From an uncultured Muribaculaceae bacterium (GTDB taxonomy: Bacteria > Bacillota_I > Bacilli_A > RF39 > UBA660): DNA of 64,000 nucleotides. The stretch covers positions 1,877 through 65,876 of the forward strand of contig CAZVUP010000005.1 of NCBI GenBank assembly GCA_964630365.1. The letters run 5' to 3'. The notes under the pieces were generated by a model, which had not been told where the DNA came from, ran no database searches, and saw nothing but the letters and a program-made list of their open reading frames with translations. Positions 3,498-41,526 of this stretch are shown one piece after another (position 1 is the first letter of the stretch; the number at the start of each line of letters is the position of its first letter). The translations under genes and the position numbers were made by a program.

Positions 3498-3508
3498 TTT
3501 ATCACCCC

Positions 3509-4483: not shown

Positions 4484-4619
4484 TTTATCACGTCCTAATC
4501 TATCAATAATTATACCATATTTTTTTATTTACTCATACTATATTTGGTATATTCACTTGACTATCTGTATAGAAAAAACTCTTTTAAATATTATTTTATA
4601 ATTCTAGTATATTTTTTTA

Positions 4620-5480
4620 TTACATTGGATTAACATGGATTACAGTTAAGTATATTTCTTCTATTTCTTTTTCTATTTCCCGCTCTAATTTATTTGCTAT
4701 TTCGTGGGAAGCAAAAGTAGTTAAATTACCATCAACAAATATTGTGAAAGATATTTGATATTTGTAACCTACTGGTGTGGCATTAAAATGATTAACTTTT
4801 TTAATTTCTTTATGTTTTTCGATTAACTTATAAACTTTATTTTTTGTTTTCTCATCCATACATTTGTCCATTAAAACATCATAGCTTTCGATAAAAATTT
4901 TAATAGCAGCATAAGCTATCCAAATAGAAATTATGATTCCAACTATAATATCAATTATATAATATCCATATAATCCAAGTATAGCAGACACTAGTGTAAG
5001 TGAAGTTAATAAACAATCATTTCTGTGATCCTTACTATTTGCTAGTAATAGAATACTATTATTATTCTTAGCTAACTTTGATGTATATAAATATAAAGAT
5101 AATTTAGTTATTATTGTAATTAATGAGACTACTACTAAATAAATGGAAAAGTTTATTTTATCATGATGAATATATGTTAAAATGCTGTTTTTTATAACAC
5201 TATAAGCTGTGAAAAGCATTACTATACTTATTAATAATGAATATATATATTCTGCTTTGCCATGGCCTAAATTGTGATCATCATCCGCTTCTTTAGAACT
5301 AATCTTATTGCCAATCATGGTCATTAGTGATGATAAGACATCTCCAAAGCTATTAAAAGCATCAGCAAGCATAGCTTGACTATTACTAATAATCGCAATT
5401 ATTCCTTTTATGACTAATAAAAACAAATTAAATATTATTCCCAAAAGACTTGCTTTATTAGTTGCTTTATATCTATTCAT
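4620..5480 (-). CDS. Cation diffusion facilitator (CDF) family metal efflux transporter
   Basis: Motifs SQAMLADAFNSFGDV and DDDHNLGHGKAEY, six TM helices, and a C-terminal cytoplasmic domain; typical CDF layout. Confidence 0.85.
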   Translation of the reverse strand: MNRYKATNKASLLGIIFNLFLLVIKGIIAIISNSQAMLADAFNSFGDVLSSLMTMIGNKISSKEADDDHNLGHGKAEYIYSLLISIVMLFTAYSVIKNSILTYIHHDKINFSIYLVVVSLITIITKLSLYLYTSKLAKNNNSILLLANSKDHRNDCLLTSLTLVSAILGLYGYYIIDIIVGIIISIWIAYAAIKIFIESYDVLMDKCMDEKTKNKVYKLIEKHKEIKKVNHFNATPVGYKYQISFTIFVDGNLTTFASHEIANKLEREIEKEIEEIYLTVIHVNPM

Positions 5481-5489
5481 AATCCACCT

Positions 5490-6608
5490 CTATAGTTTAT
5501 CAACTTTATCAATAAAAGAATTTAAGGCATGATACCAATCATATATTTTTTGCTTTTTTGTTGAATACGCTGCTATTTCTTCAAAAGTAGCATCATTTTT
5601 ATTTTCTTTATACCTCTTAATACATCTTTGATAGCAAGTATTAATACAGGTCCTGATAATTATAATATCTCCTTTTAATAATTTAGTATTTTTCATATTA
5701 CGAAACTGAGCACTATCAATTATTAACATTTTATTCTTATCTTTATAATAATTTATTATTTCCTCATATAACTCATCAAAGTTGTAACAGATATTAGGTA
5801 ATTCATGGTGTTTTTTTATTAAATAGTCATATAATTCTTGATTATTTTTATCTTTTTCCATATTTCCGAAAACTTGATCTGTATCAATTACTATACAATC
5901 TGGATTATCTTTATATTTTTGAGCTAATGTGGATTTACCACTACCACTTTCACCTGTTATATTTAAAACATTATCATCACTTAAATGTTTAATATAAGGA
6001 TCTTTATCAATGTCTTCTGTAATATATAATTCTTCTTTACGAAAATATTCCTTTAGAAAGTTTTCTTTAGTTAAACGATATTTTATTCCTTCTACTTCAT
6101 TTTCAATAAATGTATATTTCAATTTTTTTGTACCTAGTTTTTTAAAACCTAGTTTTTCTATTAGTTGCCAGCTTGGTTTATTATCTTTAGCAATTGCTGT
6201 TTCAATATATTTTATTTTTACTTCAGTAAACATATACTTTAATATTTCTAGAGCTGCTTCGTAGCAATATCCTTTTCTTTGAAAGTTTGGACTAATAAAC
6301 CAACCAATATCTCTAATTGCTAAATCATTACTTTCATCGTTTTCTTGGATACTAATTTGACCTATAACTTCATGCGTATTTTTTAATTCAATTGTCCATC
6401 TAAAAACATCTTGGTTAGTTGCTTCTTCAAGCTTTCTATATTGCCATTTTTTCTCATCTTCCCAAGAAAAGTTTATTTTTGTAGTTAAATAGTATTTATT
6501 AACTTCACTAAGACATAGTATTTTCCAGAGTGGTTTTAAATCTTTTTCTTCGGTTTTATGTAAAATTAATCTCTTTGTTTCTAGTGTTTTACTACCTAAA
6601 AAATTCAT
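5490..6608 (-). CDS. Fusion protein: RimJ/RimL-like GNAT acetyltransferase (N-terminal) plus P-loop kinase-like domain (C-terminal)
   Basis: N-terminus LETKRLILHKTEEKDL...RKGYCYEAA...LGF is GNAT-like. The C-terminal half has Walker A ITGESGSGKSTLAQKY followed by IVIDTD, resembling small NMP/zeta-type kinases. Confidence 0.6.
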   Translation of the reverse strand: MNFLGSKTLETKRLILHKTEEKDLKPLWKILCLSEVNKYYLTTKINFSWEDEKKWQYRKLEEATNQDVFRWTIELKNTHEVIGQISIQENDESNDLAIRDIGWFISPNFQRKGYCYEAALEILKYMFTEVKIKYIETAIAKDNKPSWQLIEKLGFKKLGTKKLKYTFIENEVEGIKYRLTKENFLKEYFRKEELYITEDIDKDPYIKHLSDDNVLNITGESGSGKSTLAQKYKDNPDCIVIDTDQVFGNMEKDKNNQELYDYLIKKHHELPNICYNFDELYEEIINYYKDKNKMLIIDSAQFRNMKNTKLLKGDIIIIRTCINTCYQRCIKRYKENKNDATFEEIAAYSTKKQKIYDWYHALNSFIDKVDKL

Positions 6609-7444
6609 TTTTTTGCAACTCCTCTATTATAAATAAAATATCTCTCTATCATTTGCCTGTTGACAGCAAATTTTTGTAATCTGTCTGTAACAATTTCTTC
6701 TGGTATTTCTACACCTTCTGCTTTTAGCTCGGCAAAAATTTGTTTGAGACTTTTTTCACTTATTACTGGTAACATTTCTATTAAACGTTCTGTATATATT
6801 GTGTCACTTAATTTTAAAAATTTATAAACTAAATTTTCTTGTGGATCTAAATTATAACCAAATGAGTCGCCTTTTTCTATACCCAAACAGTATTCCCCAT
6901 CAGTTATTGCTTCATAATCTAACATGCTCTCATTATCGAATAACGGGGCAAATCTTACTCCTTTATCATCAACAATTATTCCTATATTTTCATTATGACG
7001 ATCAATATTTCCAATTATAATATCGAATAGAAAGATATTTACTAATTCATCCATTAATTTTGCTGTTGTATCCTCATCAAACATCATGTCAAAGGCATAC
7101 CAAATATCTTCTAAATTGTTTTCATTATCATAGCTTTTAGAAGAGTCACTATAATATTTTCCTAATATATCAATCATTGGTATATAGTGTTTAGTATCAA
7201 ATTTTTTAGTAACAACGCCATGTGTTTTTTTATAATTTGCAGGATAATATTTGCAACAAGATACTCCTAATCTCTCAGCAATTTTTTGAGCAATTAATTC
7301 ATTATAAGCGTATTCAAAACCTTTATCAGCTTTATAATAGTAGCTATTTCCTTGATAAGTAAAAGATAAAGCTGACAATCTGTGTTCCTTTATATTAGTA
7401 ATTTCATTTTTCATTTCATTTAAATTAAAATACACTTTATGCAC
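6605..7444 (-). CDS. HipA_C / PI3-4-kinase-like protein kinase paralog 1
   Basis: Catalytic-loop-like FLFDIIIGNIDRHNENIGIIV followed by FAPLFDNE (Mg-binding Asp position in HipA). About 270 aa, so no HipA N-terminal domains. 4-nt overlap with the downstream GNAT fusion. Confidence 0.6.
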   Translation of the reverse strand: MHKVYFNLNEMKNEITNIKEHRLSALSFTYQGNSYYYKADKGFEYAYNELIAQKIAERLGVSCCKYYPANYKKTHGVVTKKFDTKHYIPMIDILGKYYSDSSKSYDNENNLEDIWYAFDMMFDEDTTAKLMDELVNIFLFDIIIGNIDRHNENIGIIVDDKGVRFAPLFDNESMLDYEAITDGEYCLGIEKGDSFGYNLDPQENLVYKFLKLSDTIYTERLIEMLPVISEKSLKQIFAELKAEGVEIPEEIVTDRLQKFAVNRQMIERYFIYNRGVAKK

Positions 7445-8230
7445 CTACTTACTATGATTAATTATTTTTTCAGGCATACTCATGGCAATCATTTCTCTGT
7501 TATATGAAAACTTATCTAAAATAGTATTTTTTATGTTTTCTGGAATTACTACTCCCTCTGTTTCCAATTCATAAAAAATATCTTCTAATGATTGTACATT
7601 TATTATAGGTAACATTGCTTGAAGACGTGCTGTATACGAAGAATCACTTTCATTCAAAAATTTATAAACTGTATTTTCTTTATCTTCTTTACTTACGCTT
7701 AAATGATAAGTTCCTTCATAAATTGATTCATTATGGAGCATACCATCATGATCAAATAGAGGTGCAAATTTCACTTTGCCATTTGATACAATTAATCCAT
7801 AGTTTTCATTATGGCGGTCCCCATTGCCAATTAAAATATCAAAAAGAAATATATTTACTAACTCATCCATTAGTTTTTTAGTAGTTTTTTCATCAAATGT
7901 TTTAGAAAAAGCATACCAGATATCTTCTAAATTATTTAGTTTATTATTATCAGTTCTATAAACTGAATACAAAATGTCTGAAATTGTAATGTAGTTTGTC
8001 ACATCAATAGCCTCTGAAGAAATTCCAATGGAACCATTATTTGTAGTCAAATAGCAATTTGCAGATGGCAATCCTAATTTTTCGGCAATTTTATGGGCAA
8101 TTAACTCATAATATGTTCTTAATTCATCTAATTGTTTATAATAGTATTCTTTCCCATCATATTCAAATACTTTTTTATTTAGACTGTTTACTTTATAATT
8201 AACTTTCATTTTATTTAAATCAAAAACCAT
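7445..8230 (-). CDS. HipA_C / PI3-4-kinase-like protein kinase paralog 2
   Basis: NNLEDIWYAF...LMDELVNIFLFDILIGNGDRHNENYGLIV...FAPLFDHD. This block is nearly identical to paralog 1, and the gene abuts paralog 1 with no gap. Confidence 0.6.
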   Translation of the reverse strand: MVFDLNKMKVNYKVNSLNKKVFEYDGKEYYYKQLDELRTYYELIAHKIAEKLGLPSANCYLTTNNGSIGISSEAIDVTNYITISDILYSVYRTDNNKLNNLEDIWYAFSKTFDEKTTKKLMDELVNIFLFDILIGNGDRHNENYGLIVSNGKVKFAPLFDHDGMLHNESIYEGTYHLSVSKEDKENTVYKFLNESDSSYTARLQAMLPIINVQSLEDIFYELETEGVVIPENIKNTILDKFSYNREMIAMSMPEKIINHSK

Positions 8231-29727: not shown

Positions 29728-29806
29728 AACATAAAAAGGAACTTTTTTCAAGTTCCTTTGTCATTTCATATAGAGCGATTAAGCAACATCTTACGAACCA
29801 TAACGC
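29728..29806 (-). ncRNA. Predicted small RNA convergent with the toxin-like gene (candidate antitoxin RNA)
   Basis: Minus-strand promoter TTGAAA (29841-29836), 17-nt spacer, TATAAT (29818-29813). Hairpin AAAGGAACTT/AAGTTCCTTT (29735-29759) is followed by a U-run on the minus strand. No ORF. Confidence 0.35.
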
Positions 29807-29918
29807 AAAAATATTATATATGAAATTCTATTATATTTCAATGGGAGTATGGAGAATTTTGTTGTTTTATAGTATAATATATTCAAAATTAAACTTGATT
29901 TTATATAGGAGGTATAAA

Positions 29919-30335
29919 ATGAACGCAAATTTATGGACGCAATTACTTATAGCAATAGTTCCAGCACTTATTACTGGTGCTGGAAGTTTAATAATTGCAA
30001 TTAAGAAATGTAAAAATGAAATTAATACTCTTGAAACTAATAATAAACACGAAATAGAAAAATTAATGAAACAACATGAAATAGATCTTGAAGCATTAAA
30101 AGAAAAGCATAGACTTGATATGGAATCTAAAGAAAAAGAACATCAATTAAAAATTGAAGAAATAAAAGTCCAAAATGAACAAGAAATATTAAAAAGAGAA
30201 AAAGAATTATCTAATTCTGCAATGTATTCAATGATGGGCGATGCAACTAAGGATTTGTTTACTGGAATATTTAATTCACCAGAATTTAAAGAAGAGATGA
30301 ATAAAAAAATTAAAGAAGGATTTAATAAGAAATAG
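29919..30335 (+). CDS. Membrane-anchored coiled-coil protein, unknown function
   Basis: Start at ATG 29919 (AGGAGG RBS). One N-terminal TM helix (LLIAIVPALITGAGSLIIAI), then a K/E-rich helical region. Confidence 0.5.
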   Translation: MNANLWTQLLIAIVPALITGAGSLIIAIKKCKNEINTLETNNKHEIEKLMKQHEIDLEALKEKHRLDMESKEKEHQLKIEEIKVQNEQEILKREKELSNSAMYSMMGDATKDLFTGIFNSPEFKEEMNKKIKEGFNKK

Positions 30336-30384
30336 TGTTATATAATTATAAAAATAAGTTGGAATGGTTGGAGGTAATTATATA

Positions 30385-31131
30385 ATGAATAAAAAACAGA
30401 TTTTAGAGCAAGTTGATAAACTAATAATTATGTATAAAAATGGTGAGTTAGGTGGCGAAGTAATGCCTGAAGATGCTAATCCACATTTTGAAAAATCTAG
30501 TTTAGAAAATTATTTATATTTTACATTACCTATGGCTCTTAATTATCAAAGAAATTCTTATACTCTATGGGAAAGTGCTCTAAAAACTTATAATGATGAA
30601 GAAACAAGATTTGTATTTAATCCAAAATTATGCTTAGAGAAATCATTTGAAGAAGTACAATATGCTCTTACCAAATATAAAGTTGCTTTGCAAAAGCAAA
30701 AACAGACTGAAATATGGCTTGCATTGTGTAATACATTTGTAGAATTATTTGATGGTGATATAAGGAAATTATTTGATGAATTAGACAATGATGTTGAAAA
30801 AATTAGAGATTATATCCAGAAACAAAATAAAAAGAAATTTCCTTATTTATCTGGTACAAAAATATGTAATTATTGGATGTATGTGATATATCAATATACG
30901 GATAGAAGATATAAAAATATTGAAAAATTAACTGTTGCCCCTGATACTCATGTATGCAAGGCAACACTAAAATTAGGATTAATTAATGATGAAGAATTTA
31001 ATTCTAGTAATGTTCAATTAATCGTAATAGAAAGATGGCAAGAATTATTTAAAGGTACAAAATATAAACCAATTGATATTCATACTCCGCTTTGGTTATG
31101 GAGTAGAAATGGATTTAAGGAGGTAAAATAA
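30385..31131 (+). CDS. HhH-GPD superfamily DNA glycosylase-like protein
   Basis: FPYLSGTKICNYWMYV (HhH, G-x-K) followed by LTVAPDTHVCKATLKLGLI, which parallels endonuclease III LPGVGRKTANVVL...VDTHIFRV..R.G. No Fe-S cysteine cluster. Confidence 0.5.
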   Translation: MNKKQILEQVDKLIIMYKNGELGGEVMPEDANPHFEKSSLENYLYFTLPMALNYQRNSYTLWESALKTYNDEETRFVFNPKLCLEKSFEEVQYALTKYKVALQKQKQTEIWLALCNTFVELFDGDIRKLFDELDNDVEKIRDYIQKQNKKKFPYLSGTKICNYWMYVIYQYTDRRYKNIEKLTVAPDTHVCKATLKLGLINDEEFNSSNVQLIVIERWQELFKGTKYKPIDIHTPLWLWSRNGFKEVK

Positions 31132-31686
31132 TGAAGATGGGAAATTTAGAATTTAAACCTATAATAGAAAATAAAAATCTTGTTCCAAAGTGCATATATG
31201 ACTTAGTTAATGATTGGGATAATTTAGAAGAAAAAAAATATATTTATGGTTGCAGAAATTAATCCTAATTTTGCTGATGGAAATAAACTTTGTGAAGAAT
31301 ATAATATTGATAAAAAAATTGGGTTTAATTGTTTAATAGTTGAGTGTAAAAGAAATGAAGTTATTAAGTATTGTGCTTTAATAGTTCCTGTTGGATATAA
31401 GTATAATATGGGAAGTGTAGTTAGAAAATTTACAAACTCTAGAGTTGTATCTGTAGCTCCTCTTGATTATGTTTTAGAAAAAACACAAATGGAATATGGA
31501 AGTATCACGCCAATTGGTCTTCCAAAGGACTGGATGATATTGGTTGATCCATTAATAAAAGAACAAGAGCAAATTATAATTGGTGGAGGTTTAGTAAATT
31601 CTAAAATCTCATTACTAACAGAGTTATTTTTAAAGATTCCTAATGTTGAAATTGGTGATGGTGTTGCCAAAAAAATTATTGAGTAA
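31131..31686 (+). pseudogene. YbaK/ProX-type aminoacyl-tRNA editing domain protein, interrupted by a frameshift at an A8 tract
   Basis: ATG 31131 (overlapping TAATG with the upstream gene) opens a 43-codon frame. The +1 frame continues from the A8 run (31231-31238) as ...EINPNF...EYGSITPIGLP...IIIGGGLVNSKISL (tRNA_edit-like). Confidence 0.5.
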
Positions 31687-32071
31687 TATCTTTTATAAAG
31701 GGTATGGGAATTCCCATAGTAGAATTTATGCGGGAGTATAAATTCAGTGCTGGCTAGACAAGGGCTTTACTCCCACTTTGTGATAAATATAAAAAGAGGA
31801 TTAGATTATTTTGATAATTTTTTCCTCTTTTTAGTTAGTAAAATAAAAACTTACGAACTTTAATTAGTCCGTAAGTTGTCTTCAAATGGAGCGAGTGTCG
31901 TAGATATCTACAACTCTTTCTCTAGTGATATGATAAATATCACTCACTACTAATAATATAGCATATTTTTAGAGAATAATAAACAAAATTATAAACAAAA
32001 ATGTAAAAATTTGATATAATCATAATAGCGAATATCTTATGATATTCTCTTTTTTTATAAGGAGGGTAAAA

Positions 32072-33043
32072 ATGTTCTCGAAAAAATTTTTAGACAAAGG
32101 ATTTGTATTTTTAGGTGTAGGAATTGTCTCATTTGGAAATATATTGACAGAAATTATACTTAATTATTTTAATATTGATATTCCACAATATAATATTTAT
32201 ATTTGCTTAATTGTTGGAATCTTATTAATTATTGTTGGATTAATAATGTATTATAAGGAGTCAAAAGAAAATCATACTTTATCAATTATAGGTTTAGATA
32301 ATATGAACTATATCACCAAAATTAAAAATCCGCTTACTATTAATATAATTGATGATTGTAAAAATATTAAAACAAGTAATTCTAAATCAATAATATCTAG
32401 TTACGTTAAAAATATTAAAGAAAAAATTAGTAATTATATTTCATATAAAATTTCTTATTTTGGCGTTGCACCTTTACCTTTTGTTGCTATAGCAGGAAAA
32501 TATTATAGAAAAGTAAACATTATAAAACATTATGAATATCACCAAAAGGATGATAAAATTTTACCATTGAAGATAAAAAAATTATTTTTTAATGAAAAAC
32601 TAAAATGTGAAGAAAAGAACAATAATAGTAATATTGCAGTTATTACTATAGAAACAACAACTAGAATTAATGATGAAGATTTAAAACAATTTAGAAATGC
32701 TAATGTTTTTAAATTTTACCTAGAAGATACCAGAACTAATGCTATTACTTATGAAAAACAGCTAGAAGAATATTCAGAAACAATTGCAGATACTATTTAT
32801 AAAATTAGTAAAACAAATATTGAAAAAATTTATATATTAGGTGCATGCCAAAGTTCTTTAGTTTTTGAAGTGTTTAGAAGATTAAATGATAATAGAATTA
32901 AAGAAATAATTGTTTGCAATTACAAGGCTAAATCAAAAAATAAATACAACTGGGGGATTAGCATTTACAATGAAAATGATATTGAAAAATATGTAGAATT
33001 AGGAAGTGATATATGTGGACAAAATCAAAAATCTAATGAATAA
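32072..33043 (+). CDS. 2TM-SAVED-like CBASS effector candidate
   Basis: Start at ATG 32072 (GGAGGG RBS). Two N-terminal TM helices, then an approximately 250-aa domain with two Rossmann-like units (ISYFGVAPLPFVAIAGKYY; IYILGACQSSLVFEVFRRL), as in SAVED/CARF. Confidence 0.5.
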   Translation: MFSKKFLDKGFVFLGVGIVSFGNILTEIILNYFNIDIPQYNIYICLIVGILLIIVGLIMYYKESKENHTLSIIGLDNMNYITKIKNPLTINIIDDCKNIKTSNSKSIISSYVKNIKEKISNYISYKISYFGVAPLPFVAIAGKYYRKVNIIKHYEYHQKDDKILPLKIKKLFFNEKLKCEEKNNNSNIAVITIETTTRINDEDLKQFRNANVFKFYLEDTRTNAITYEKQLEEYSETIADTIYKISKTNIEKIYILGACQSSLVFEVFRRLNDNRIKEIIVCNYKAKSKNKYNWGISIYNENDIEKYVELGSDICGQNQKSNE

Positions 33044-34364
33044 TTTTTACTATAATGAAGTTATACTATCGAATGATAAAGTTACTGAGTTACGTGAAAA
33101 GAAAAGTATAAATATAACTAGATTAAAAGATGGAATAAATAAATATAATGAAGATAATAATACCGATTATATATTATACGAAAGTTTAGAACAAGGAAGT
33201 ATTGCAATGTCCACTGCAATTGAACCAGAATACGATGACTTTGATATAGATGTTGCGATAATATTTGAAAAAGAGAAAATACCATCATCGACTGATGAAA
33301 TGAAAGACTTAGTAATAGATTTTTTAAAACCATATAATTATTATTTTAAAGAAAATCCAAAAAAGAAAAACAACTGTATAAGAATTGAATATCAAGATAA
33401 TTATCATATAGATTTTGCTGTTTATAGAGTTTCAAATGATTATTATGAACATTGTGGTTTGAATTGGACAGAAAGGAACCCTAGAAGTATAAATAATTGG
33501 TTTCATGAACAAAACAATTTGTATGATGACAAACTAAGAAAAATCACACGATTGATAAAGTATTTTTCTAAGACTAGAAAAGATTGGGATATATGTGGTG
33601 GTTTTATAATAACTATCCTTGTAAATGAGGCATTAGCAAATATAACATTAGATGTAGATATAGATAAATTACTACTAGATGTAATAAAATCTATTTCCAA
33701 TAGGATTAATTTTAATACTTCTGTTAAAAATCCTACTAATAATCAAGAATTGATAAATGATGATAAAAACAAAAAAAGATTAAAAAACTTAAAAGAAAAA
33801 TTGGATGAACATATTAGTGATATTGAAAATGCTTATTTAAATAATGATGTTGAAGATGTAAAAAGAAAATGGAATAAGTTTTTTAAAACGAATTATTTTA
33901 CATCAGATTCTCAACAAAGAAGTAGATGTGAAGACAATGAAATGTTTATCGAAAATATATATAGTATTGATAAATTAATGCCAATAAAGTTTGAAATAAA
34001 ATGCCAAAGATATATTTCAAAAGATAACTTTAAAAACTCTACATATGTTAATTGCTTTGACAATCAAAAATTTAGTATAACTCAAAATAGAGATGAAAAA
34101 TTATGCTTTTCGATAGATACAACTATTCCTAAACCATATATTTTGTTATGGAAAATAAAAAATAATGGTAATTATGCTATAGAAAATAATAGTTTACGTG
34201 GAGAGATATACTATGGTAATAATTTAAACTCTTTTGCAGATGATCCACATAGTTTTAAACGATTTGAAAGTATATCGTTTAAAGGAAATCATTATGTAGA
34301 ATGTTATTTAATCAAAAATAATAAGTGTATTGCTAAATCACGATTTAATGTTAATATTGAATAA
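33006..34364 (+). CDS. CD-NTase (SMODS) family nucleotidyltransferase with C-terminal beta-rich extension
   Basis: LEQGSIAMSTAIEPEYDDFDIDVAIIF (G-S ... D-x-D) and NYHIDFAVY (third Asp), then RKITRLIKYFSK. The C-terminal part, LLWKIKNNGNYAIENNSLRGEIYY, is possibly an AGS-C sensor domain. Start is uncertain (GTG 33006/33015 or ATG 33036). Confidence 0.65.
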   Translation: MIYVDKIKNLMNNFYYNEVILSNDKVTELREKKSINITRLKDGINKYNEDNNTDYILYESLEQGSIAMSTAIEPEYDDFDIDVAIIFEKEKIPSSTDEMKDLVIDFLKPYNYYFKENPKKKNNCIRIEYQDNYHIDFAVYRVSNDYYEHCGLNWTERNPRSINNWFHEQNNLYDDKLRKITRLIKYFSKTRKDWDICGGFIITILVNEALANITLDVDIDKLLLDVIKSISNRINFNTSVKNPTNNQELINDDKNKKRLKNLKEKLDEHISDIENAYLNNDVEDVKRKWNKFFKTNYFTSDSQQRSRCEDNEMFIENIYSIDKLMPIKFEIKCQRYISKDNFKNSTYVNCFDNQKFSITQNRDEKLCFSIDTTIPKPYILLWKIKNNGNYAIENNSLRGEIYYGNNLNSFADDPHSFKRFESISFKGNHYVECYLIKNNKCIAKSRFNVNIE

Positions 34365-34451
34365 TTAAAGGAAATTTAGTGGTTTTTTAAGACATTTAAC
34401 ACTTTTTATGATAGAATAATACTTGAATTAATTTTCAGGAGGGATTTAGAT

Positions 34452-35993
34452 ATGAATTATTTAGCGAATATCAAAAGAATATTAGATAGTGATGCAGGAT
34501 TGATAATTGAAGATATGTCTCAACCAGATATTAAAAAAGTTGTAGATAATAGATTTTCTCTTATTAAGCAAAGTGTTGAACGAGTTGAAAATAAAGATGA
34601 TAATTTTTACACTGAATTAGTAAAATTAATAAGTAATTACATTAATGAATTATGTGATAAGAAAATTGAAGATTTTCCTATTATTGTTTTTGATGAAAAT
34701 AGTGAAGAAATTGCACAAGAATATGATGAACTTAATTCAAGTGATATGTTGAATCTAACACATGCAAATAAGGAACTATCAAAAAAATTATTTGAATATG
34801 TATGTAGTATTTTAGAAGTTAATAAAGATGTTAAGTTAGATATTGAAACATTAAAGAAACTATTAAATCGTAATCCAAAATTATTTACTTTATCGGTAGA
34901 AGAAAGTTATTTATATAGAACTTTTGATTATAAAAAATTAGTTAAGATTATCAATGAAAATGGAACATTAGAAAAATCAAATATTAGCATAGATGACATT
35001 TACCAAATATTATTTGATACTTGTCAACTTAATAATCAAGATGTTTTTTGCGGTTTAGTAACACCAGAACAATTTAGTAAAAATCACAAAAAAATAGATG
35101 AAATGTTAAGCTGTTGTAATGCAAAAGCATTTGTCGAAATAACTAATATAATAACACGTAATTTTGATAAAAAATTTGATAGATTAAGTTTTGCAAAGAA
35201 TAGAAGCAAAGATAAATTTTGTGAAAGATTAATAATTGAATTGCTACACTCTTATGTTAAAGATGAAGATTGTAATTTAATTCATCAAATTCTTACAGAT
35301 TCTGAAATTCAAATTGATTATGATAGATATTATGCAGATTATATAGGACAAACTAATTTAAAATCACTTATTGCATTAAGTAAAAATCCTATAATTATAA
35401 AAGACCTTTTAAGCAAAGAACAAAATGTGCAAGATTACTATTGGCATGGTGAATCTGGCATACAATTATTTAGATTATATGGAATTATTGGTGACTACGA
35501 GAAAGCACTAACTAATTTCAATGAAAAATATAATTATGGATGTGATTACACAGAAGACTTTGATGATGATTTTAATAGAGTTGGACATACTTATGGAGGC
35601 TGGGATTACGGAGATTCCGTTGCTGTATTTGTTAATGATGTTTGTACTTCATTTAATGAACAAAATACTGATTATTCAATGCGCAAAGCAATTATTAATA
35701 AGATTTTGAATAATGATAAAGTAAAGTATATTAATTTAGAAGAAACATTACCTGTTGTGCAAGAAGTATTATCAGATGAAGATTTTAAAGCATTATTAGA
35801 TACTTTAGTTTTAAAAAGAAATTCTGGTAATTTAGGGTTTATTGTTTCAGAAGAAAATAATGAAGATAGTTTTTTCAATCGCTATGTCATTAGATTGGCT
35901 AGTGAAGAAGAAGTTCAAGATTATTTATCATCATTGAATAAAAAAGAAAAAGCTAAAGTTTTAAGTTTAAATCCTACTAAAAAAGATGATTAG
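34452..35993 (+). CDS. Hypothetical protein (513 aa), no recognised domain
   Basis: AGGAGGG RBS and a long ORF directly downstream of the CD-NTase-like gene with no terminator between them. Its stop overlaps the convergent mob gene stop by 4 nt. Confidence 0.5.
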   Translation: MNYLANIKRILDSDAGLIIEDMSQPDIKKVVDNRFSLIKQSVERVENKDDNFYTELVKLISNYINELCDKKIEDFPIIVFDENSEEIAQEYDELNSSDMLNLTHANKELSKKLFEYVCSILEVNKDVKLDIETLKKLLNRNPKLFTLSVEESYLYRTFDYKKLVKIINENGTLEKSNISIDDIYQILFDTCQLNNQDVFCGLVTPEQFSKNHKKIDEMLSCCNAKAFVEITNIITRNFDKKFDRLSFAKNRSKDKFCERLIIELLHSYVKDEDCNLIHQILTDSEIQIDYDRYYADYIGQTNLKSLIALSKNPIIIKDLLSKEQNVQDYYWHGESGIQLFRLYGIIGDYEKALTNFNEKYNYGCDYTEDFDDDFNRVGHTYGGWDYGDSVAVFVNDVCTSFNEQNTDYSMRKAIINKILNNDKVKYINLEETLPVVQEVLSDEDFKALLDTLVLKRNSGNLGFIVSEENNEDSFFNRYVIRLASEEEVQDYLSSLNKKEKAKVLSLNPTKKDD

Positions 35994-37378
35994 AAACCTA
36001 TTTCATAATCATCTTTTTCTTTGTCTTTATTTTTATCATTTTCTTTATTCCAAATATAATCATCTTGAATTGATTGAATAGTTTTATCACTAAATATATT
36101 ATGAGTATATAAATCTTTTGAAAAATTCCAGTAATTTTCTCGTTCTTTTTCTTTACTAAACATTTTATCTTTTATAAACTTAACTAATCTATCAAATAAA
36201 TTTTCAAAGAAATTAATCGTGCTTTGTAGTTTAGAATTTTTTTCTTTAAGATCATCAATCTCATCTACTTGTTTATCTATCTTTTTTTCAAGAGATTTAA
36301 CTTTAATGTTTAAGGCATCATTGTTTTCAGTTAGTATTTTAACTTTTTCTCTGTTTTCTTTTAATTCAGTTTCAACATCATTTAAGGTAATAGATAACTT
36401 TTGCATTTTCTTATATTCTTTATTAGTTGAATCTACTTGCTGAATAAATTTATCAATTTTATCTTTATCACCTTTATTTAAAACATATTTATCTTTGTTA
36501 GTGAAAGTAGTTTTTAAATTACTAACTATATTTTTAACCTCATTAGAATTATTATCTAGTTCTAGTGATTTTTTATTGGCTATTTCTAATCGTTCTTTAT
36601 TTTTAGATAATTCTTCTTGCATTTCAATATAGTTTCCCATATCTTTAACATTTATATCTTTATTTCTACCTTTTTGTTTAGTTTTTAAAACATTATTTAA
36701 GCCATATTCTTTATTAAAACTAGCAATACATAAAGTTCTCATTTTATCTTGTAGTTCTATTAACTTTGTTTTTGTGAATACATCAGATTTACCAACTTGT
36801 TTAGACATACCATTTTTGCTTTTATATTTAATTGGAACACCAACAATATGCATATGTGGACTAGTTTCATCATAATGAATAATTGCACTTGCTATTTTAA
36901 AGTTAGGAATTAAAGTTTCTAAATCTTTAACTTGTTCTTTATATACATTAGACATTTTGTGCTTGAATTTCTCATCTTTAGTATCCCAATACTTTTTATC
37001 TCCAAGTTCAATAATAATTTCACAAGCCAAATCATTTTTAGAATTATCACTAATCTTTTTAAAGTAGTCATCTATCTTTCTATCATCTCTAGTTTGTTTA
37101 GAATTGTATTCTAATCTTGCTTCTTCAAATTCATCTTTATATAATTTTTGAACATCATTATATAGAGAAGTTGTTCCTCTAACAATTTCAATTAAGTGTT
37201 GTTTGTCATCATACTTACGATAATTATGTTTATCAACACGAGATAATTGTCTAGCATTTTGTATTGCATTATTTGATAGAGAAGTATTTCCACTAGCATT
37301 AGATTTTGCTCTTGCTCTTGATACATTTTTTCTATTCTTATCACTACCCAAATGCAGTGAGTATGCAAGTTCTGGCAT
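35990..37378 (-). CDS. MobV-family (Mob_Pre) relaxase
   Basis: Motif III HxDE..PHxH is present as IIHYDETSPHMHIVGVPI, with an N-terminal HL..D..R region and a long C-terminal coiled coil typical of MobV/Pre proteins. Confidence 0.8.
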   Translation of the reverse strand: MPELAYSLHLGSDKNRKNVSRARAKSNASGNTSLSNNAIQNARQLSRVDKHNYRKYDDKQHLIEIVRGTTSLYNDVQKLYKDEFEEARLEYNSKQTRDDRKIDDYFKKISDNSKNDLACEIIIELGDKKYWDTKDEKFKHKMSNVYKEQVKDLETLIPNFKIASAIIHYDETSPHMHIVGVPIKYKSKNGMSKQVGKSDVFTKTKLIELQDKMRTLCIASFNKEYGLNNVLKTKQKGRNKDINVKDMGNYIEMQEELSKNKERLEIANKKSLELDNNSNEVKNIVSNLKTTFTNKDKYVLNKGDKDKIDKFIQQVDSTNKEYKKMQKLSITLNDVETELKENREKVKILTENNDALNIKVKSLEKKIDKQVDEIDDLKEKNSKLQSTINFFENLFDRLVKFIKDKMFSKEKERENYWNFSKDLYTHNIFSDKTIQSIQDDYIWNKENDKNKDKEKDDYEIGF

Positions 37379-37608
37379 ATATAAATCACATCCTTTCTTT
37401 GAGCTTATTTTGTTTATGACAAAATATTTAACCCCCTAGGTATTTTGACACAAGTATCAAAATAACCTCGTGGGCTAGGGATTCCCTAGAACCCTTTTGA
37501 AACTTATTTCGTAATGTTTTAAAACTTCGTAATAAAACAAAACTACATAAGTTTATAAAATGCTATCGCCACTTTCATTTACTTCGTAAACAAAACGTGC
37601 CACGCATT

Positions 37609-39540
<1,932 letters not shown>

Positions 39541-39729
39541 TCAAAAAAAGAGAGACAAAAGTAATAGAAATATATACTACTACCTTTATCTCTCTAACTT
39601 TTACTATCAAAATAAATTTTTTTCTTATTCCCATAATGCATAACCCCCATTAATACATTTAAGAATATCTCTTTCAGTTGCTTTATATAATAATATTTTT
39701 GTCTTAAAAAGTCAATAGTTAGCGAAATA

Positions 39730-40023
39730 TCAGGCATTTAGTAGATTTTTAATATAATCTTCAAGTTCCACAAGTTGAATCTTTTTATTTAGACTACCAA
39801 CATAAATATCAGTAGAATAATTAAATGCTAGAAAAGTAGTATCTTTAACAATAATCTTATGTGGTTCTATGTAAGATAGATTAGTCTTATCAATTTTTCT
39901 AATACTACCATTTATAATAGTAGGTTTGATATGACAAAACTCACATATAAATTCTAGTCGTTGTTTAAGATTGCCTTCTATTTCTAGTTCTTGTGTAATA
40001 ATCTTAATCACTACAAACACCAT
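39730..40023 (-). CDS. Hypothetical protein (97 aa)
   Basis: Small ORF upstream of the recombinase gene, inside the element. No recognised motif. Confidence 0.35.
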   Translation of the reverse strand: MVFVVIKIITQELEIEGNLKQRLEFICEFCHIKPTIINGSIRKIDKTNLSYIEPHKIIVKDTTFLAFNYSTDIYVGSLNKKIQLVELEDYIKNLLNA

Positions 40024-40032
40024 CCTTTCTTT

Positions 40033-40110
40033 TAAGGATGACTTTTTAATAGAACTTCCAAGCTGAAACGCGAGAGTTCGACAAACAAAAAATCATCTCA
40101 ATATGAGATG
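40033..40110 (+). pseudogene. Decayed tRNA-Gly-like relic, inverted relative to the intact tRNA-Gly
   Basis: TTTAAT-AGAAC-TTCCAAGCTGA-..ACG.G.G-GTTCGA-...ATCATC matches blocks of the adjacent tRNA (TTTAATGGTAGAAC[CTCAGCC]TTCCAAGCTGACTACGTGGGTTCGATTCCCATCATC), with a 7-nt deletion and 3' decay. Confidence 0.4.
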
Positions 40111-40112
40111 AT
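40083..40112 (-). terminator. Rho-independent terminator downstream of tRNA-Gly
   Basis: ATCATCTCA-ATA-TGAGATGAT hairpin (40092-40112), followed on the minus strand by TTTTTTGTTTG. Confidence 0.65.
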
Positions 40113-40153
40113 ATCTATCGTAAATGTTCGAAAAGTTCGAACAGAAACGTCAC

Positions 40154-40227
40154 TGGAGCGGATGATGGGAATCGAACCCACGTAGTCAGCTTGGAAGGCT
40201 GAGGTTCTACCATTAAACTACATCCGC
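40154..40227 (-). tRNA. tRNA-Gly (anticodon UCC), CCA encoded
   Basis: The reverse complement folds as a cloverleaf: acceptor GCGGATG/CATCCGC, D arm GTTT-AATGGTA-GAAC, anticodon arm TCAGC-CTTCCAA-GCTGA, T arm GTGGG-TTCGATT-CCCAT, and 3' TCCA. Confidence 0.92.
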
Positions 40228-40341
40228 ATAAATTCTTTAATCGCCTTAGTACTTTCCGATTTACCAAGTCGACTAAATCAGTAGACATGTTTAATTATAA
40301 CAAAAAAATGGCTAAAGTCAATAGTTTTTAGCCATTTTTTA

Positions 40342-41526
40342 TTATGAAAGTGTTACTTCCACTTCTTTTTCTTTATATTCTCTTCCTTTTATATAACTAA
40401 TTGTTAGTTTAACTTTATCTCCTTTTTTCTTTTCATATATGATATCAGTTAAATTATCAAAGCTTTCAACTTTGTTTCCTTCAATACCAGTTATAATATT
40501 TCCTATTTCTAAACCAGCTTTATCAGCTCCACTATCTGGAGATATTTTTGAGATATAGAATCCTGTTGGCATATTATATTGTTTACTTTGAGTTTCTGTT
40601 ATCATATAACCTTCCACACCCAGTGTAGCACTACTTGTATCTTCTTCTCCATTCATTAACGCAGTTATTAACTCTTTTACATCTGTGATTGGAATAGCAA
40701 ATCCCATTCCTTCAACACTTGCTGATGTAGATGTTCCAGAAGATGAATATTTAACAGAATTTATTCCTACTACTTCACCTTTACTATTTAATAGGGCTCC
40801 ACCACTATTTCCACCATTGATTGCGGCATCTATTTGAATCATTTTACTTGTTACATTATCAACTGTAATACTTCTATTTACAGCACTTACAACACCTGTT
40901 GTTACTGACTGTCCATAACCAAGAGCATTTCCAATAGCAATAATTCCATTACCTACTTTTAAGGCATTACTATCACCTAAAGTTGCAATTTTTATTGATT
41001 CAATTGTTTCATCATCTAAATCCTTTAATTTTACAGCTATTACTGCCACGTCTTTTCTTTCAGATGTTCCTTTAATAGTTGCATCAACACTTTTTTCATT
41101 TACAAATTGAACTGATAATTCTTCAGCATCTGCAACAACATGATTATTAGTTAAAATTAATAATTCACTATCATTTTTACTGATTATTATACCTGAGCCG
41201 GCACCTTCTGCATATTGATTTTCATTACTGAAAAAAGGGCCAAAATTACCAGATGATACTAATGTCTTGCTTGTAATCGCAACAATTGATGGCATTACTT
41301 CTTCAACTACTTCGGATACATCTGTAATATAAATTCCTTCCTTTATTTTATCATTTGTTTCAGTATAATTTAATTCTGCTTTTTTACTTGGTACTTTTAT
41401 TTTATCAAATTTTAATAATCCAACATTATTAAGAGCAATTAGCATAGAAACTAATATTAACATAATAAATGCAAATACTAATAGTCTCACTAATCCACTT
41501 TTTTTCTTTCTTTCTTCTTTATTCAT
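40342..41526 (-). CDS. HtrA/DegP-family serine protease with PDZ domain
   Basis: N-terminal TM anchor, the trypsin-like catalytic triad context (TNNHVV, RKDVAVI, GNSGGALLN), and a C-terminal PDZ domain. Confidence 0.88.
   Translation of the reverse strand: MNKEERKKKSGLVRLLVFAFIMLILVSMLIALNNVGLLKFDKIKVPSKKAELNYTETNDKIKEGIYITDVSEVVEEVMPSIVAITSKTLVSSGNFGPFFSNENQYAEGAGSGIIISKNDSELLILTNNHVVADAEELSVQFVNEKSVDATIKGTSERKDVAVIAVKLKDLDDETIESIKIATLGDSNALKVGNGIIAIGNALGYGQSVTTGVVSAVNRSITVDNVTSKMIQIDAAINGGNSGGALLNSKGEVVGINSVKYSSSGTSTSASVEGMGFAIPITDVKELITALMNGEEDTSSATLGVEGYMITETQSKQYNMPTGFYISKISPDSGADKAGLEIGNIITGIEGNKVESFDNLTDIIYEKKKGDKVKLTISYIKGREYKEKEVEVTLS

What the first reader, a model, noticed from the sequence alone, without database searches (positions are those of the whole stretch)
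32072..34364. CBASS-like pair (2TM-SAVED-like effector plus CD-NTase-like cyclase with a sensor-like C-terminal extension) carried as cargo of a mobilizable element
Seen in sequence:
- ORF 33006..34364 has GS(x)16DFDIDV plus HIDFAV and a downstream RLIKYFSK helix, the layout of cGAS/DncV-like (SMODS) nucleotidyltransferases.
- It also has an extra ~150-aa beta-rich C-terminus (LLWKIKNNGNYAIENNSLRGEIYY). From memory I tentatively associate this with the AGS-C sensor domain.
- The upstream, overlapping ORF has two TM helices followed by two Rossmann-like repeats (GVAPLPFVAIAGKYY; ILGACQSSLVFEVF), as in SAVED.

Established knowledge: CD-NTase plus a TM-SAVED effector constitutes a minimal (type I) CBASS abortive-infection system.

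Unusual points: the effector comes first in the gene order, no Cap2/Cap3/HORMA genes are present, and the locus sits on a serine-recombinase/MobV element.
Basis: partly seen in the sequence, partly recalled or inferred. Interest (0 to 1): 0.65.

Follow-up and report, generated by a model that had tools for sequence, protein, structure and literature searches.

The report
CdnB–Cap14 CBASS on a tRNA-Gly mobile element
This is an intact two-gene anti-phage alarm system of an already characterised kind (a cGAS-like cyclase plus a membrane-channel effector), riding on a small 8.3-kb mobile element that hops between gut bacteria; it is a clean but ordinary example.

Summary
ORF 32072..33043 is a 2TM+SAVED effector (Pfam SAVED 6e-21; PADLOC '2TM effector' 7e-44, full length). 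ORF 33015..34364 is a CD-NTase fused to an AGS-C domain (PADLOC cyclase 1e-116; AGS_C 3e-26; AlphaFold pLDDT 90; best fold match BfCdnB 7LJO). Its catalytic G61-S62, D77-I78-D79 and D133 are invariant. It aligns end to end with the characterised B. thuringiensis Bt407 CdnB (32%, 4e-85), and the effector aligns with BtCap14. This is therefore a Type I CBASS of the known CdnB–Cap14 kind.

The "unusual" points are not unusual. Effector-first order holds in 49/49 related loci and in Bt407 itself. Lack of Cap2/3/HORMA defines Type I. AGS-C is near-universal in clade B.

New here is the carrier. It is an 8,267-bp serine-recombinase/MobV element (31887..40153) inserted at the 3' end of tRNA-Gly and flanked by a 7-bp TGGAGCG repeat. 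A metagenome contig joins 31886 to 40154 exactly. The element recurs at about 94-95% DNA identity in five other species-representative genomes. The downstream 513-aa gene is an independent, swappable cargo gene, not a third CBASS component. Verdict: a new member of a known kind, of low to moderate interest.

The parts
31887..31893 (+). Left-end copy of the 7-bp direct repeat TGGAGCG (attL core). Homology to sister elements starts exactly here.
   Evidence: Five species-representative genomes (L012-L016) and the first element of L001 begin their homology to the window at this heptamer. The X9 joint 31886->40154 has 7 letters fitting both sides.
31992..32065 (+). Candidate promoter (TAAACA-17-TATAAT with TG, 31992-32020) and Shine-Dalgarno AAGGAGG (32059-32065) of the CBASS operon.
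   Evidence: Consensus scan only (the number of promoter-like sites is not above the shuffles). The SD sequence was read directly from the sequence.
32072..33043 (+). cap14-like effector, 323 aa: two N-terminal TM helices (aa 12-30, 42-60) plus a C-terminal SAVED nucleotide-sensor domain.
   Evidence: Pfam SAVED 5.9e-21. PADLOC PDLC00676 '2TM effector' 6.6e-44. NCBIfam SAVED 77.9 bits against a cutoff of 33. PDB 9WQ2/9OM7 SAVED-domain proteins 2e-17/6e-14. 28% identity, E 4e-28 to the Bt407 SAVED protein. Hydropathy analysis.
33015..34364 (+). cdnB-like CD-NTase, 449 aa (GTG start; alternatives are GTG 33006 and ATG 33036). The NTase core is about aa 1-300. The AGS-C Ig-like beta domain is about aa 307-449 (nt ~33933-34361).
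   Evidence: PADLOC cyclase 1.3e-116. Pfam DncV-like_NTFase 2e-16 and AGS_C 2.7e-26. G61, S62, D77, D79 and D133 are invariant in 29 homologues. AF2 pLDDT 90.4, pTM 0.88. Foldseek top hit 7LJO BfCdnB, E 1.1e-14, TM 0.81. 32% identity, E 4e-85 over the full length to Bt407 CdnB.
34452..35993 (+). 513-aa protein of unknown fold. It occupies the variable cargo slot of the element and is not part of CBASS.
   Evidence: No Pfam or NCBIfam hit. Homologues occur in elements without CBASS (L001-L009). CBASS occurs without it (L010-L016). AF2 pLDDT 88.9 with no meaningful PDB or BFVD fold match.
35990..37378 (-). MobV/Mob_Pre-family relaxase with a coiled-coil C-terminus.
   Evidence: Pfam Mob_Pre 2.1e-13, 51 bits against a cutoff of 25.5. 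NCBIfam MobV 1.7e-08, below the equivalog cutoff.
37609..39531 (-). Large serine recombinase (integrase/excisionase of the element).
   Evidence: Pfam Resolvase 9.4e-33 and Recombinase 3.6e-19. Similar to CcrB/XisF by NCBIfam, below the equivalog cutoffs.
39730..40023 (-). 97-aa ORF of unknown function inside the right arm of the element, conserved in sister elements.
   Evidence: No family hit. The region 39527-40091 / 39887-40161 is conserved in L015 and L001.
40127..40153 (.). Right end of the element: hairpin GTTCGAA-AAG-TTCGAAC followed by AGAAACGTCAC.
   Evidence: Read from the sequence. The same end lies before TGGAGCGG in L001, and similar ends precede the left ends of L012 and L014.
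40154..40227 (-). tRNA-Gly(UCC), the integration target. Its 3' end (40154-40160, TGGAGCG) is the right-hand repeat copy.
   Evidence: ARAGORN; repeat search; joints.
29771..31886 (.). Neighbouring block that is NOT part of the CBASS element. It is a recombinase-less remnant of a second element type accreted earlier at the same tRNA site. It carries a TM coiled-coil ORF, a 255-aa ORF and a YbaK-like ORF, and ends in the hairpin 31848-31877.
   Evidence: Its left end TAGAGCGATTAAGC... matches the left end of L001's second element. Its last 47-53 bp are 100% identical to the sequence next to L001's tRNA-Gly. The X5 joint 29770->40154 skips it together with the CBASS element.

Best explanation
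The two overlapping genes are an intact Type I CBASS abortive-infection operon of the CdnB-Cap14 kind.

Shown here:
- The cyclase is a CD-NTase with a complete active site (G61-S62, D77-I78-D79, D133) fused to a C-terminal AGS-C Ig-like domain.
- The upstream gene encodes a membrane protein with two TM helices and a SAVED cyclic-nucleotide sensor domain.
- The pair is translationally coupled.
- The gene order and pairing are conserved across the family.
- The pair sits as the first cargo module of an 8,267-bp integrative mobilisable element (large serine recombinase + MobV relaxase). The element is inserted at the 3' end of tRNA-Gly(UCC) and flanked by TGGAGCG repeats.
- The element is present or absent between strains and is shared at about 94-95% DNA identity by several gut Bacilli species.

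Inferred by homology to the characterised B. thuringiensis system:
- On phage infection the cyclase, with the AGS-C domain modulating which phages are sensed, makes a cyclic dinucleotide (2',3'-cGAMP is the best guess).
- The signal binds the SAVED domain.
- The effector oligomerises or opens as an ion-conducting pore in the membrane, and the infected cell dies or arrests before phage release.
- The element spreads the system by excision via the serine recombinase and mobilisation by a co-resident conjugative element.
For: - Domain and family hits.
- Invariant catalytic residues.
- The same D77-I78-D79 as the Bt407 enzyme, whose 'DID79AIA' mutant abolishes defence: and PMC10402079.
- Full-length alignment to Bt407 CdnB (E 4e-85) and of the effector to the adjacent Bt407 SAVED protein (E 4e-28).
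- Confident model with an NTase core plus a beta-sandwich tail, and best fold hit BfCdnB.
- Best PDB sequence hits are CdnB enzymes (7LJO = BfCdnB per PMC10442399; 8YS* = DwCdnB).
- Effector upstream in 49/49 loci.
- No Cap2/Cap3/HORMA/TRIP13 domain in any neighbour.
- Element ends come from independent comparisons and from metagenome contigs that join 31886->40154 (8,267 bp skipped, 7 shared letters, still there at >=98% identity) and 29770->40154.
- A 1,537-nt metatranscriptome contig spans the effector-cyclase junction of a ~96.5% variant.
- Literature on AGS-C in clade B and on Cap14 as a 2',3'-cGAMP-gated chloride channel.
Against: - No functional data exist for this locus. The product nucleotide and the ion selectivity are extrapolated across 32% (cyclase) and 28% (effector) identity.
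- The window's cyclase sits in a separate subclade from BtCdnB.
- The cyclase scores below NCBIfam's equivalog cutoffs for 'CBASS cGAMP synthase' (103 against 150 bits).
- The effector is about 40 residues shorter at the N-terminus than BtCap14. It has two clear TM helices, whereas three putative helices are reported for BtCap14. Pfam Saf_2TM is below its gathering threshold (16.9 against 29.5 bits).
- Clade B placement rests on nearest neighbours, not on a tree with all clades A-H.
- No circular excision junction was seen.
- The X5 joint has only 27 nt on its shorter side.
- RNA contigs may contain DNA.
Confidence: 0.88

Rival explanations
1. The system has three genes: the 513-aa protein downstream is a third CBASS component (a sensor, regulator or second effector) co-transcribed with the pair.
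For: It is on the same strand, with an 87-nt gap and no predicted terminator between the cyclase and the gene. It has a large conserved family (93 homologues) restricted to the same kind of gut Bacilli. The model is confident but the fold is unrecognised.
Against: The two units assort independently. Sister elements with a 94-95% identical CBASS block carry other genes in that slot: 152 aa + NUDIX in L012, 202+193 aa in L015, 255 aa in L016. A 97.8% identical copy of the 513-aa gene sits directly after the same element left end without any CBASS in L001/L003/L004. More distant homologues are in unrelated contexts. None of 49 related CBASS loci needs it. Metatranscriptome contigs of a variant stop before it.
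Confidence: 0.04
2. The pair mainly serves the mobile element rather than the host. It could act as an addiction or stabilisation module, or as a weapon against competing mobile elements and conjugative invaders. Anti-phage defence would be secondary.
For: It is the first cargo module next to the element's left end in all sister elements. The tRNA-Gly site holds tandem arrays of competing elements in the window and in L001, L012, L014 and L015. Membrane-killing effectors can in principle act as post-segregational killers.
Against: CBASS has no antidote component, and no mechanism is known by which loss of the element would activate the cyclase. The closest characterised relative is a phage-triggered abortive-infection system (PMC10402079). 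L015 keeps CBASS although the relaxase and recombinase are gone, which suggests the host benefits from it on its own.
Confidence: 0.06
3. The locus is a decaying or silent remnant: the genes are open but no longer functional or expressed.
For: The neighbouring 29.8-31.9 kb block is clearly a decayed element, and a sister note reports a frameshifted YbaK-like gene there. L015 shows this element family does decay.
Against: Both frames are intact and all catalytic residues are conserved. The proteins are 96-97% identical across five species while the DNA is about 94-95% identical, so no decay of the frames is visible. The model is confident. RNA-derived contigs cover a close variant. The relaxase and recombinase are full length.
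Confidence: 0.03

Closest known systems
BtCBASS: CdnB-Cap14 of Bacillus thuringiensis Bt407 (plasmid BTB_502p, NC_018878.1 215501-217960); Tak et al., PMC10402079
   Same: Two-gene Type I operon with the SAVED-TM effector gene first. The cyclase is about 450 aa with a C-terminal AGS-C domain and an identical D77-I78-D79 catalytic motif. It aligns over its full length at 32% identity (E 4e-85). The effector aligns from the last TM helix to the end of SAVED at 28% identity (E 4e-28).
   Different: The window's pair belongs to a separate, well-supported subclade of gut small-genome Bacilli. The effector is 323 aa rather than 360 aa and lacks about 40 N-terminal residues, so it has two clear TM helices. 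It sits on a chromosomal mobilisable element rather than a megaplasmid. The product (2',3'-cGAMP) and the chloride selectivity are unverified here.
Bacteroides fragilis CdnB (BfCdnB, clade B04, PDB 7LJO) and Deinococcus wulumuqiensis DwCdnB (PDB 8YS*)
   Same: These are the best sequence and fold matches among solved structures (phmmer 6.9e-13; Foldseek E 1.1e-14, TM 0.81 normalised to the target).
   Different: Identity is only 17-24%. The crystallised chains (290-349 aa) match only the NTase core, and no solved structure covers the AGS-C part of the model.
Type I CBASS with AGS-C-fused CD-NTases (Richmond-Buccola et al., bioRxiv 10.1101/2023.05.21.541620)
   Same: About 40% of Type I operons have the AGS-C fusion, and clades B and H almost always do. 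The fusion is thought to tune which phages are sensed.
   Different: Those experiments used gammaproteobacterial operons in E. coli. Nothing is known for this host group.
Tn4451/Tn4453-type mobilisable elements of Clostridia (large serine recombinase TnpX/TndX + MobV relaxase TnpZ); review PMC5704250
   Same: A small element (under 10 kb) with one large serine recombinase, one MobV/Mob_Pre relaxase, no T4SS genes, very short flanking repeats and a cargo module.
   Different: Tn4451 integrates with low site specificity at a 2-bp core and carries chloramphenicol resistance. This element family is found at the 3' end of tRNA-Gly with a 7-bp shared core, forms tandem arrays there, and carries defence or unknown cargo.

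Membership tests
Type I CBASS | CD-NTase (cGAS/DncV-like) with an intact GS...[DE]x[DE]...[DE] active site | tested here: met
   Pfam DncV-like_NTFase 2e-16 and PADLOC cyclase 1.3e-116. G61/S62/D77/D79/D133 are invariant. NTase fold confirmed, top hit 7LJO.
Type I CBASS | Adjacent effector gene with a cyclic-nucleotide sensor domain fused to a killing module | tested here: met
   SAVED 5.9e-21 plus two TM helices. The genes overlap by 29 nt. The effector is adjacent in 49/49 related loci.
Type I CBASS | No ancillary Cap2/Cap3 (E1/E2/JAB), HORMA/TRIP13 or other regulator genes | tested here: met
   Pfam, PADLOC and NCBIfam scans of all ORFs from 24 to 44 kb show none.
Type I CBASS | Protects against phage by abortive infection, dependent on the cyclase active site | not testable with these tools
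   This needs phage challenge of a cloned operon and D77A/D79A mutants.
CD-NTase clade B (CdnB) | Closest characterised and solved relatives are CdnB enzymes | tested here: met
   PDB phmmer ranks 7LJO BfCdnB, then DwCdnB. Foldseek ranks 7LJO first. E 4e-85 to BtCdnB.
CD-NTase clade B (CdnB) | Falls inside clade B in a phylogeny containing references of all clades A-H | not tested
   Reference sets (Whiteley 2019 / Millman 2020) were not available. My tree contains only this family with BtCdnB inside it. Clade H, which also carries AGS-C, is not formally excluded.
CD-NTase clade B (CdnB) | C-terminal AGS-C Ig-like domain | tested here: met
   Pfam AGS_C 2.7e-26 over profile positions 2-129 of 129. 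All-beta C-terminal domain in the model, residues ~326-448.
Cap14 (Saf-2TM + SAVED effector) | C-terminal SAVED domain | tested here: met
   Pfam 75.5 bits against a cutoff of 26.2. NCBIfam 77.9 against 33.
Cap14 (Saf-2TM + SAVED effector) | N-terminal Saf-2TM membrane module | tested here: inconclusive
   Pfam Saf_2TM scores 16.9 bits, below the gathering score of 29.5. However, the PADLOC '2TM effector' and 'SAVED_TM' models match full length (6.6e-44, 1.6e-39), and two hydrophobic helices are present. The protein is about 40 aa shorter than BtCap14.
Cap14 (Saf-2TM + SAVED effector) | Binds 2',3'-cGAMP and conducts chloride | not testable with these tools
   Known only for BtCap14 (PMC10402079).
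Integrative mobilisable element with serine recombinase + MobV (Tn4451-like) | Encodes its own integrase and relaxase but no mating-pore genes | tested here: met
   Resolvase + Recombinase domains and Mob_Pre are present. No T4SS domain lies within 31887-40153.
Integrative mobilisable element with serine recombinase + MobV (Tn4451-like) | Discrete ends with short direct repeats, and presence/absence at the site | tested here: met
   TGGAGCG at 31887 and 40154. The X9 contig joins 31886->40154. The same left end is found in six other loci.
Integrative mobilisable element with serine recombinase + MobV (Tn4451-like) | Excises as a circle and is mobilised by a helper | not tested
   No 40153->31887 junction was listed in the contig data. 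Contigs cannot show absence. Raw reads or PCR are needed.

The most novel reading that the evidence does not exclude
The slot right behind the left end of this tRNA-Gly-targeting element family may be a swappable defence-cargo site. If so, the unrecognised genes that replace or follow CBASS there could be undescribed anti-phage or anti-element genes. These are the 513-aa protein of novel fold in the window, the 152-aa + NUDIX pair in L012, 202+193 aa in L015, 255 aa in L016 and the HopA1-like 427-aa protein in L001. In addition, the divergent, compact (two-TM) Cap14-like effector and its cyclase subclade may use a nucleotide signal other than 2',3'-cGAMP.
Probability: 0.25. Interest if true: 0.5.

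Novelty: new member of a known kind. Interest (0 to 1): 0.25.

Why it matters
This finding confirms that a tool-less reading of raw sequence can correctly call a CBASS operon. It extends the characterised CdnB-Cap14 system to a divergent subclade in uncultured small-genome gut Bacilli (ruminant, chicken and other gut metagenomes). It also gives a precisely delimited 8.3-kb vehicle, with exact ends, target site and an empty site, that moves the system between species.

If bacterial 2',3'-cGAMP is indeed the product, gut commensals carrying mobile copies would be relevant to the idea, raised in PMC10402079, that bacterial cGAMP could reach host STING. The element family's modular cargo slot is a practical place to look for new defence genes. 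None of this changes current understanding of CBASS.

Tried and rejected
I could not scan the window's own genome or its relatives for empty sites, and used metagenome contigs instead.
- An exact-protein look-up of the flanking HtrA-like gene gave only contigs that carry the element or break inside the tRNA, and no empty site.
- A literature search for PDB ids 9OM7, 9WQ2, 8YSC and 8YSN found nothing relevant. The identity of 8YS* came from the fold-search descriptions instead.
- Pfam and PADLOC on the variable-slot genes of sister elements gave one NUDIX hit and nothing else.
- Fold searches of the 513-aa model against PDB and BFVD gave only generic helical-repeat noise, TM <= 0.25.
- I rejected the idea that the 25.8-28.4 kb HerA/FtsK-like pair or the 29.4-31.9 kb block belongs to the CBASS element. 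Homology to sister elements and both joints place them outside.
- I first read the hairpin at 31848-31877 as the native tRNA terminator. I rejected that because it is 100% identical to L001's, while the two tRNAs are only about 84% identical. The X5 joint also puts the native flank at 29770.
- The two loci scored 'effector_downstream' (L057, L063) are artefacts of stop-to-stop ORF overlap. Their effector coordinates lie upstream.
- No circle junction was seen.
Full report
**1. What is in the sequence**

Two overlapping + strand ORFs lie at 32039/32072..33043 and 33006/33015..34364, in a ~26% G+C window. The ATG at 32072 is preceded by AAGGAGG and gives the 323-aa product that public gene calls also use. 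The cyclase most likely begins at GTG 33015 (449 aa in public calls), so the two genes overlap by 29 nt. The only slip is that GS and DFDIDV are 12 residues apart, not 16.

**2. What the proteins are**

- **Effector.** It matches Pfam SAVED (5.9e-21) and, nearly full length, the PADLOC '2TM effector' and 'SAVED_TM' models (6.6e-44, 1.6e-39). NCBIfam SAVED is above its cutoff. Two hydrophobic helices lie at residues 12-30 and 42-60. Its best solved relatives are two SAVED-domain membrane proteins, 9WQ2 and 9OM7 (2e-17, 6e-14).
- **Cyclase, sequence.** It matches Pfam DncV-like_NTFase (2e-16) and AGS_C (2.7e-26, whole profile), and a PADLOC cyclase model end to end (1.3e-116). In an alignment of 29 homologues down to 36% identity, G61, S62, D77, D79 and D133 are invariant.
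- **Cyclase, structure.** An AlphaFold2 model built on that alignment is confident (pLDDT 90.4, pTM 0.88). It shows an alpha/beta NTase core followed by an all-beta C-terminal domain. Foldseek against the PDB puts B. fragilis CdnB (7LJO) first (E 1.1e-14, TM 0.81 on the target), followed by CdnC, DwCdnB, CdnD, DncV and CdnG.

**3. Which known system**

The literature held here states three things:
- AGS-C fusions occur in about 40% of Type I CBASS operons and almost always in clades B and H (bioRxiv 10.1101/2023.05.21.541620).
- 7LJO is BfCdnB, clade B04 (PMC10442399).
- CdnB enzymes of B. thuringiensis 407 and C. botulinum make 2',3'-cGAMP, which opens Cap14, a Saf-2TM+SAVED chloride channel. 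Defence is lost in the CdnB 'DID79AIA' mutant (PMC10402079).

A tblastn search against plasmids found the Bt407 locus on plasmid BTB_502p. There a 360-aa SAVED protein immediately precedes a 454-aa cyclase. The window's cyclase aligns with it from residue 1 to the last residue, AGS-C included (32% identity, E 4e-85), and both have D77-I78-D79. The effectors align at 28% identity (E 4e-28). The window's effector is about 40 residues shorter at the N-terminus.

A maximum-likelihood tree puts the window's enzyme in a well-supported subclade of gut small-genome Bacilli. That subclade is sister to the main Firmicute clade holding BtCdnB and the C. difficile BI1 enzyme. I therefore file the pair as a Type I CBASS of the CdnB-Cap14 kind. 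Two caveats apply. Clade B placement is by nearest neighbour, not a full A-H tree. The Saf_2TM Pfam model itself is below threshold.

**4. The 'unusual points' are not unusual**

- In every one of 49 related loci where a 2TM-SAVED ORF is adjacent to the cyclase, it lies upstream on the same strand, usually overlapping it. The two rows flagged otherwise are overlap artefacts.
- Bt407 and C. difficile BI1 show the same order.
- No Cap2/Cap3/HORMA/TRIP13 domain is present nearby, which is simply the definition of Type I.

**5. The carrier element**

BLASTN of related loci against the window showed that five species-representative genomes share the CBASS block at about 94-95% DNA identity (cyclase 96-97% aa). 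They are labelled Tenericutes, Bacilli (two), Clostridium sp. CAG:451 and a probably mis-binned 'Muribaculaceae'. In all of them the homology starts at the same base, window ~31885.

An alignment of the junctions shows that all of them, and a further element in L001, begin with TGGAGCG(A)GTGTCGTAGATATCTAC. TGGAGCG occurs only twice between 29 and 41 kb: at 31887 and at 40154. The second copy is the 3' end of tRNA-Gly(UCC) on the minus strand. The right end (...GTTCGAAAAGTTCGAACAGAAACGTCAC|TGGAGCGG) is reproduced in L001, where homology stops right after TGGAGCGG. The element is therefore 31887..40153, 8,267 bp. In order, it contains:
- cap14-like and cdnB-like genes;
- a variable gene;
- a MobV/Mob_Pre relaxase;
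- a large serine recombinase;
- a 97-aa ORF.

Independent support comes from public gut metagenomes:
- **Run X9.** One contig has 31839-31886 directly followed by 40154-40622, skipping 8,267 bp with 7 letters fitting both sides. It is still there at >=98% identity.
- **Run X5.** A contig joins 29770 to 40154 at depth 47, equal to the chromosomal flanks (45-48), while the CBASS region has depth ~0 at 98%. The shorter side is only 27 nt, so this is the weaker of the two. It nevertheless coincides with the left end I had derived separately for the neighbouring block: TAGAGCGATTAAGC..., matching the left end of L001's second element.

The window thus holds a tandem array at tRNA-Gly. An older recombinase-less remnant occupies 29771-31886 and the CBASS element occupies 31887-40153. 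Same-species contigs with the identical element exist. I saw no circular junction.

The closest described element type is the Tn4451 family: serine recombinase + MobV, very short repeats (PMC5704250). Unlike this element, that family integrates with low site specificity.

**6. The 513-aa neighbour**

It has no family hit. It belongs to a family of about 93 proteins from 'Bacilli bacterium' MAGs. It folds confidently (pLDDT 88.9) but has no meaningful structural match.

It is not a CBASS component. A 97.8% identical copy follows the same element left end directly, with no CBASS, in L001/L003/L004. More distant homologues sit in unrelated contexts. Sister elements with the same CBASS block carry other genes in that slot. 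CBASS and the 513-aa gene are therefore two independently exchangeable cargo modules.

**7. Expression**

Chicken-gut metatranscriptome contigs cover a ~96.5% variant. One 1,537-nt contig spans 32602-34138, across the effector-cyclase junction, and coverage stops before the 513-aa gene. This is weak evidence for co-transcription, because DNA carry-over cannot be excluded.

**8. Mechanism: shown versus inferred**

Shown:
- domain architecture;
- an intact active site;
- conserved pairing and order;
- translational coupling by overlap;
- carriage on a delimited element that is present or absent between strains and shared between species.

Inferred from BtCBASS and general CBASS knowledge:
- phage-triggered synthesis of a cyclic dinucleotide, possibly 2',3'-cGAMP;
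- binding to SAVED;
- channel or pore opening and abortive infection;
- a role of AGS-C in tuning phage sensing;
- excision by the serine recombinase and mobilisation by a helper.

**9. Verdict**

The system is a new member of a known, experimentally characterised kind. What this work adds is:
- the exact identification as CdnB-Cap14-like;
- the demonstration that the supposed oddities are family norms;
- the precise element boundaries and target site, with an empty site;
- the exclusion of the 513-aa gene from the system.

Interest is low to moderate.

Noticed in passing
window 29771-31886: A recombinase-less remnant of a second element type accreted at the same tRNA-Gly site. Its left end TAGAGCGATTAAGC matches the left end of L001's second element. 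Its right end (hairpin 31848-31877) is 100% identical to the sequence beside L001's tRNA-Gly. It carries the TM coiled-coil, 255-aa and YbaK-like ORFs.
   Followed up: partly
window 34452-35993: A 513-aa protein in a family of ~93 members confined to uncultured gut Bacilli. It has a confident AF2 model (pLDDT 88.9), no Pfam/NCBIfam/PADLOC family, and no PDB or BFVD fold match (TM <= 0.25). It is always found on mobile elements, next to varying neighbours.
   Followed up: partly
L012:2595-3694; L015:5410-6602; L016:5415-6182: In sister elements the slot after the cyclase holds other small genes (152 aa + a NUDIX protein; 202 + 193 aa; 255 aa) instead of the 513-aa gene. Apart from NUDIX, none has a family hit. 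This is a swappable cargo slot.
   Followed up: partly
L001:9835-19341: A tandem array of two elements at tRNA-Gly in another species. The first has the same left end as the window's element, the 513-aa gene and a truncated relaxase. The second carries a 1,259-aa unknown protein, NikA-like and TnpV genes and its own serine recombinase. L012, L014 and L015 also have another element's right end just left of their CBASS element.
   Followed up: partly
L015 (Clostridium sp. CAG:451) 2868-7832: The CBASS block is retained, but the relaxase and recombinase are missing: only a 92-bp relaxase remnant is left, followed by the element's right arm. This is a decayed, immobilised copy that still keeps intact CBASS frames.
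   Followed up: no
window 29878-31698: Contigs in runs X8 and X14 (depth 82 and 32) join 29878 to 31698, skipping 1,819 bp. This is a common variant of the left-hand remnant that lacks its three cargo ORFs.
   Followed up: no
window 37577-37602: The A/T homopolymer region between the relaxase start and the recombinase stop shows many 1-2 nt length variants among metagenome contigs at high summed depth. These may be different element copies or a slippage-prone tract.
   Followed up: no
L016, L019: Contigs carrying this Firmicute-type element or cyclase are binned as 'Muribaculaceae' and 'Rickettsiales' MAGs. This is probably mis-binning of mobile DNA rather than cross-phylum transfer.
   Followed up: no
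L010:9447-17356: The 52%-identical CBASS pair in L010 sits in a defence-island-like neighbourhood: SLFN-g3 helicase-like proteins, MazG-like, NERD and AAA_21 genes.
   Followed up: no
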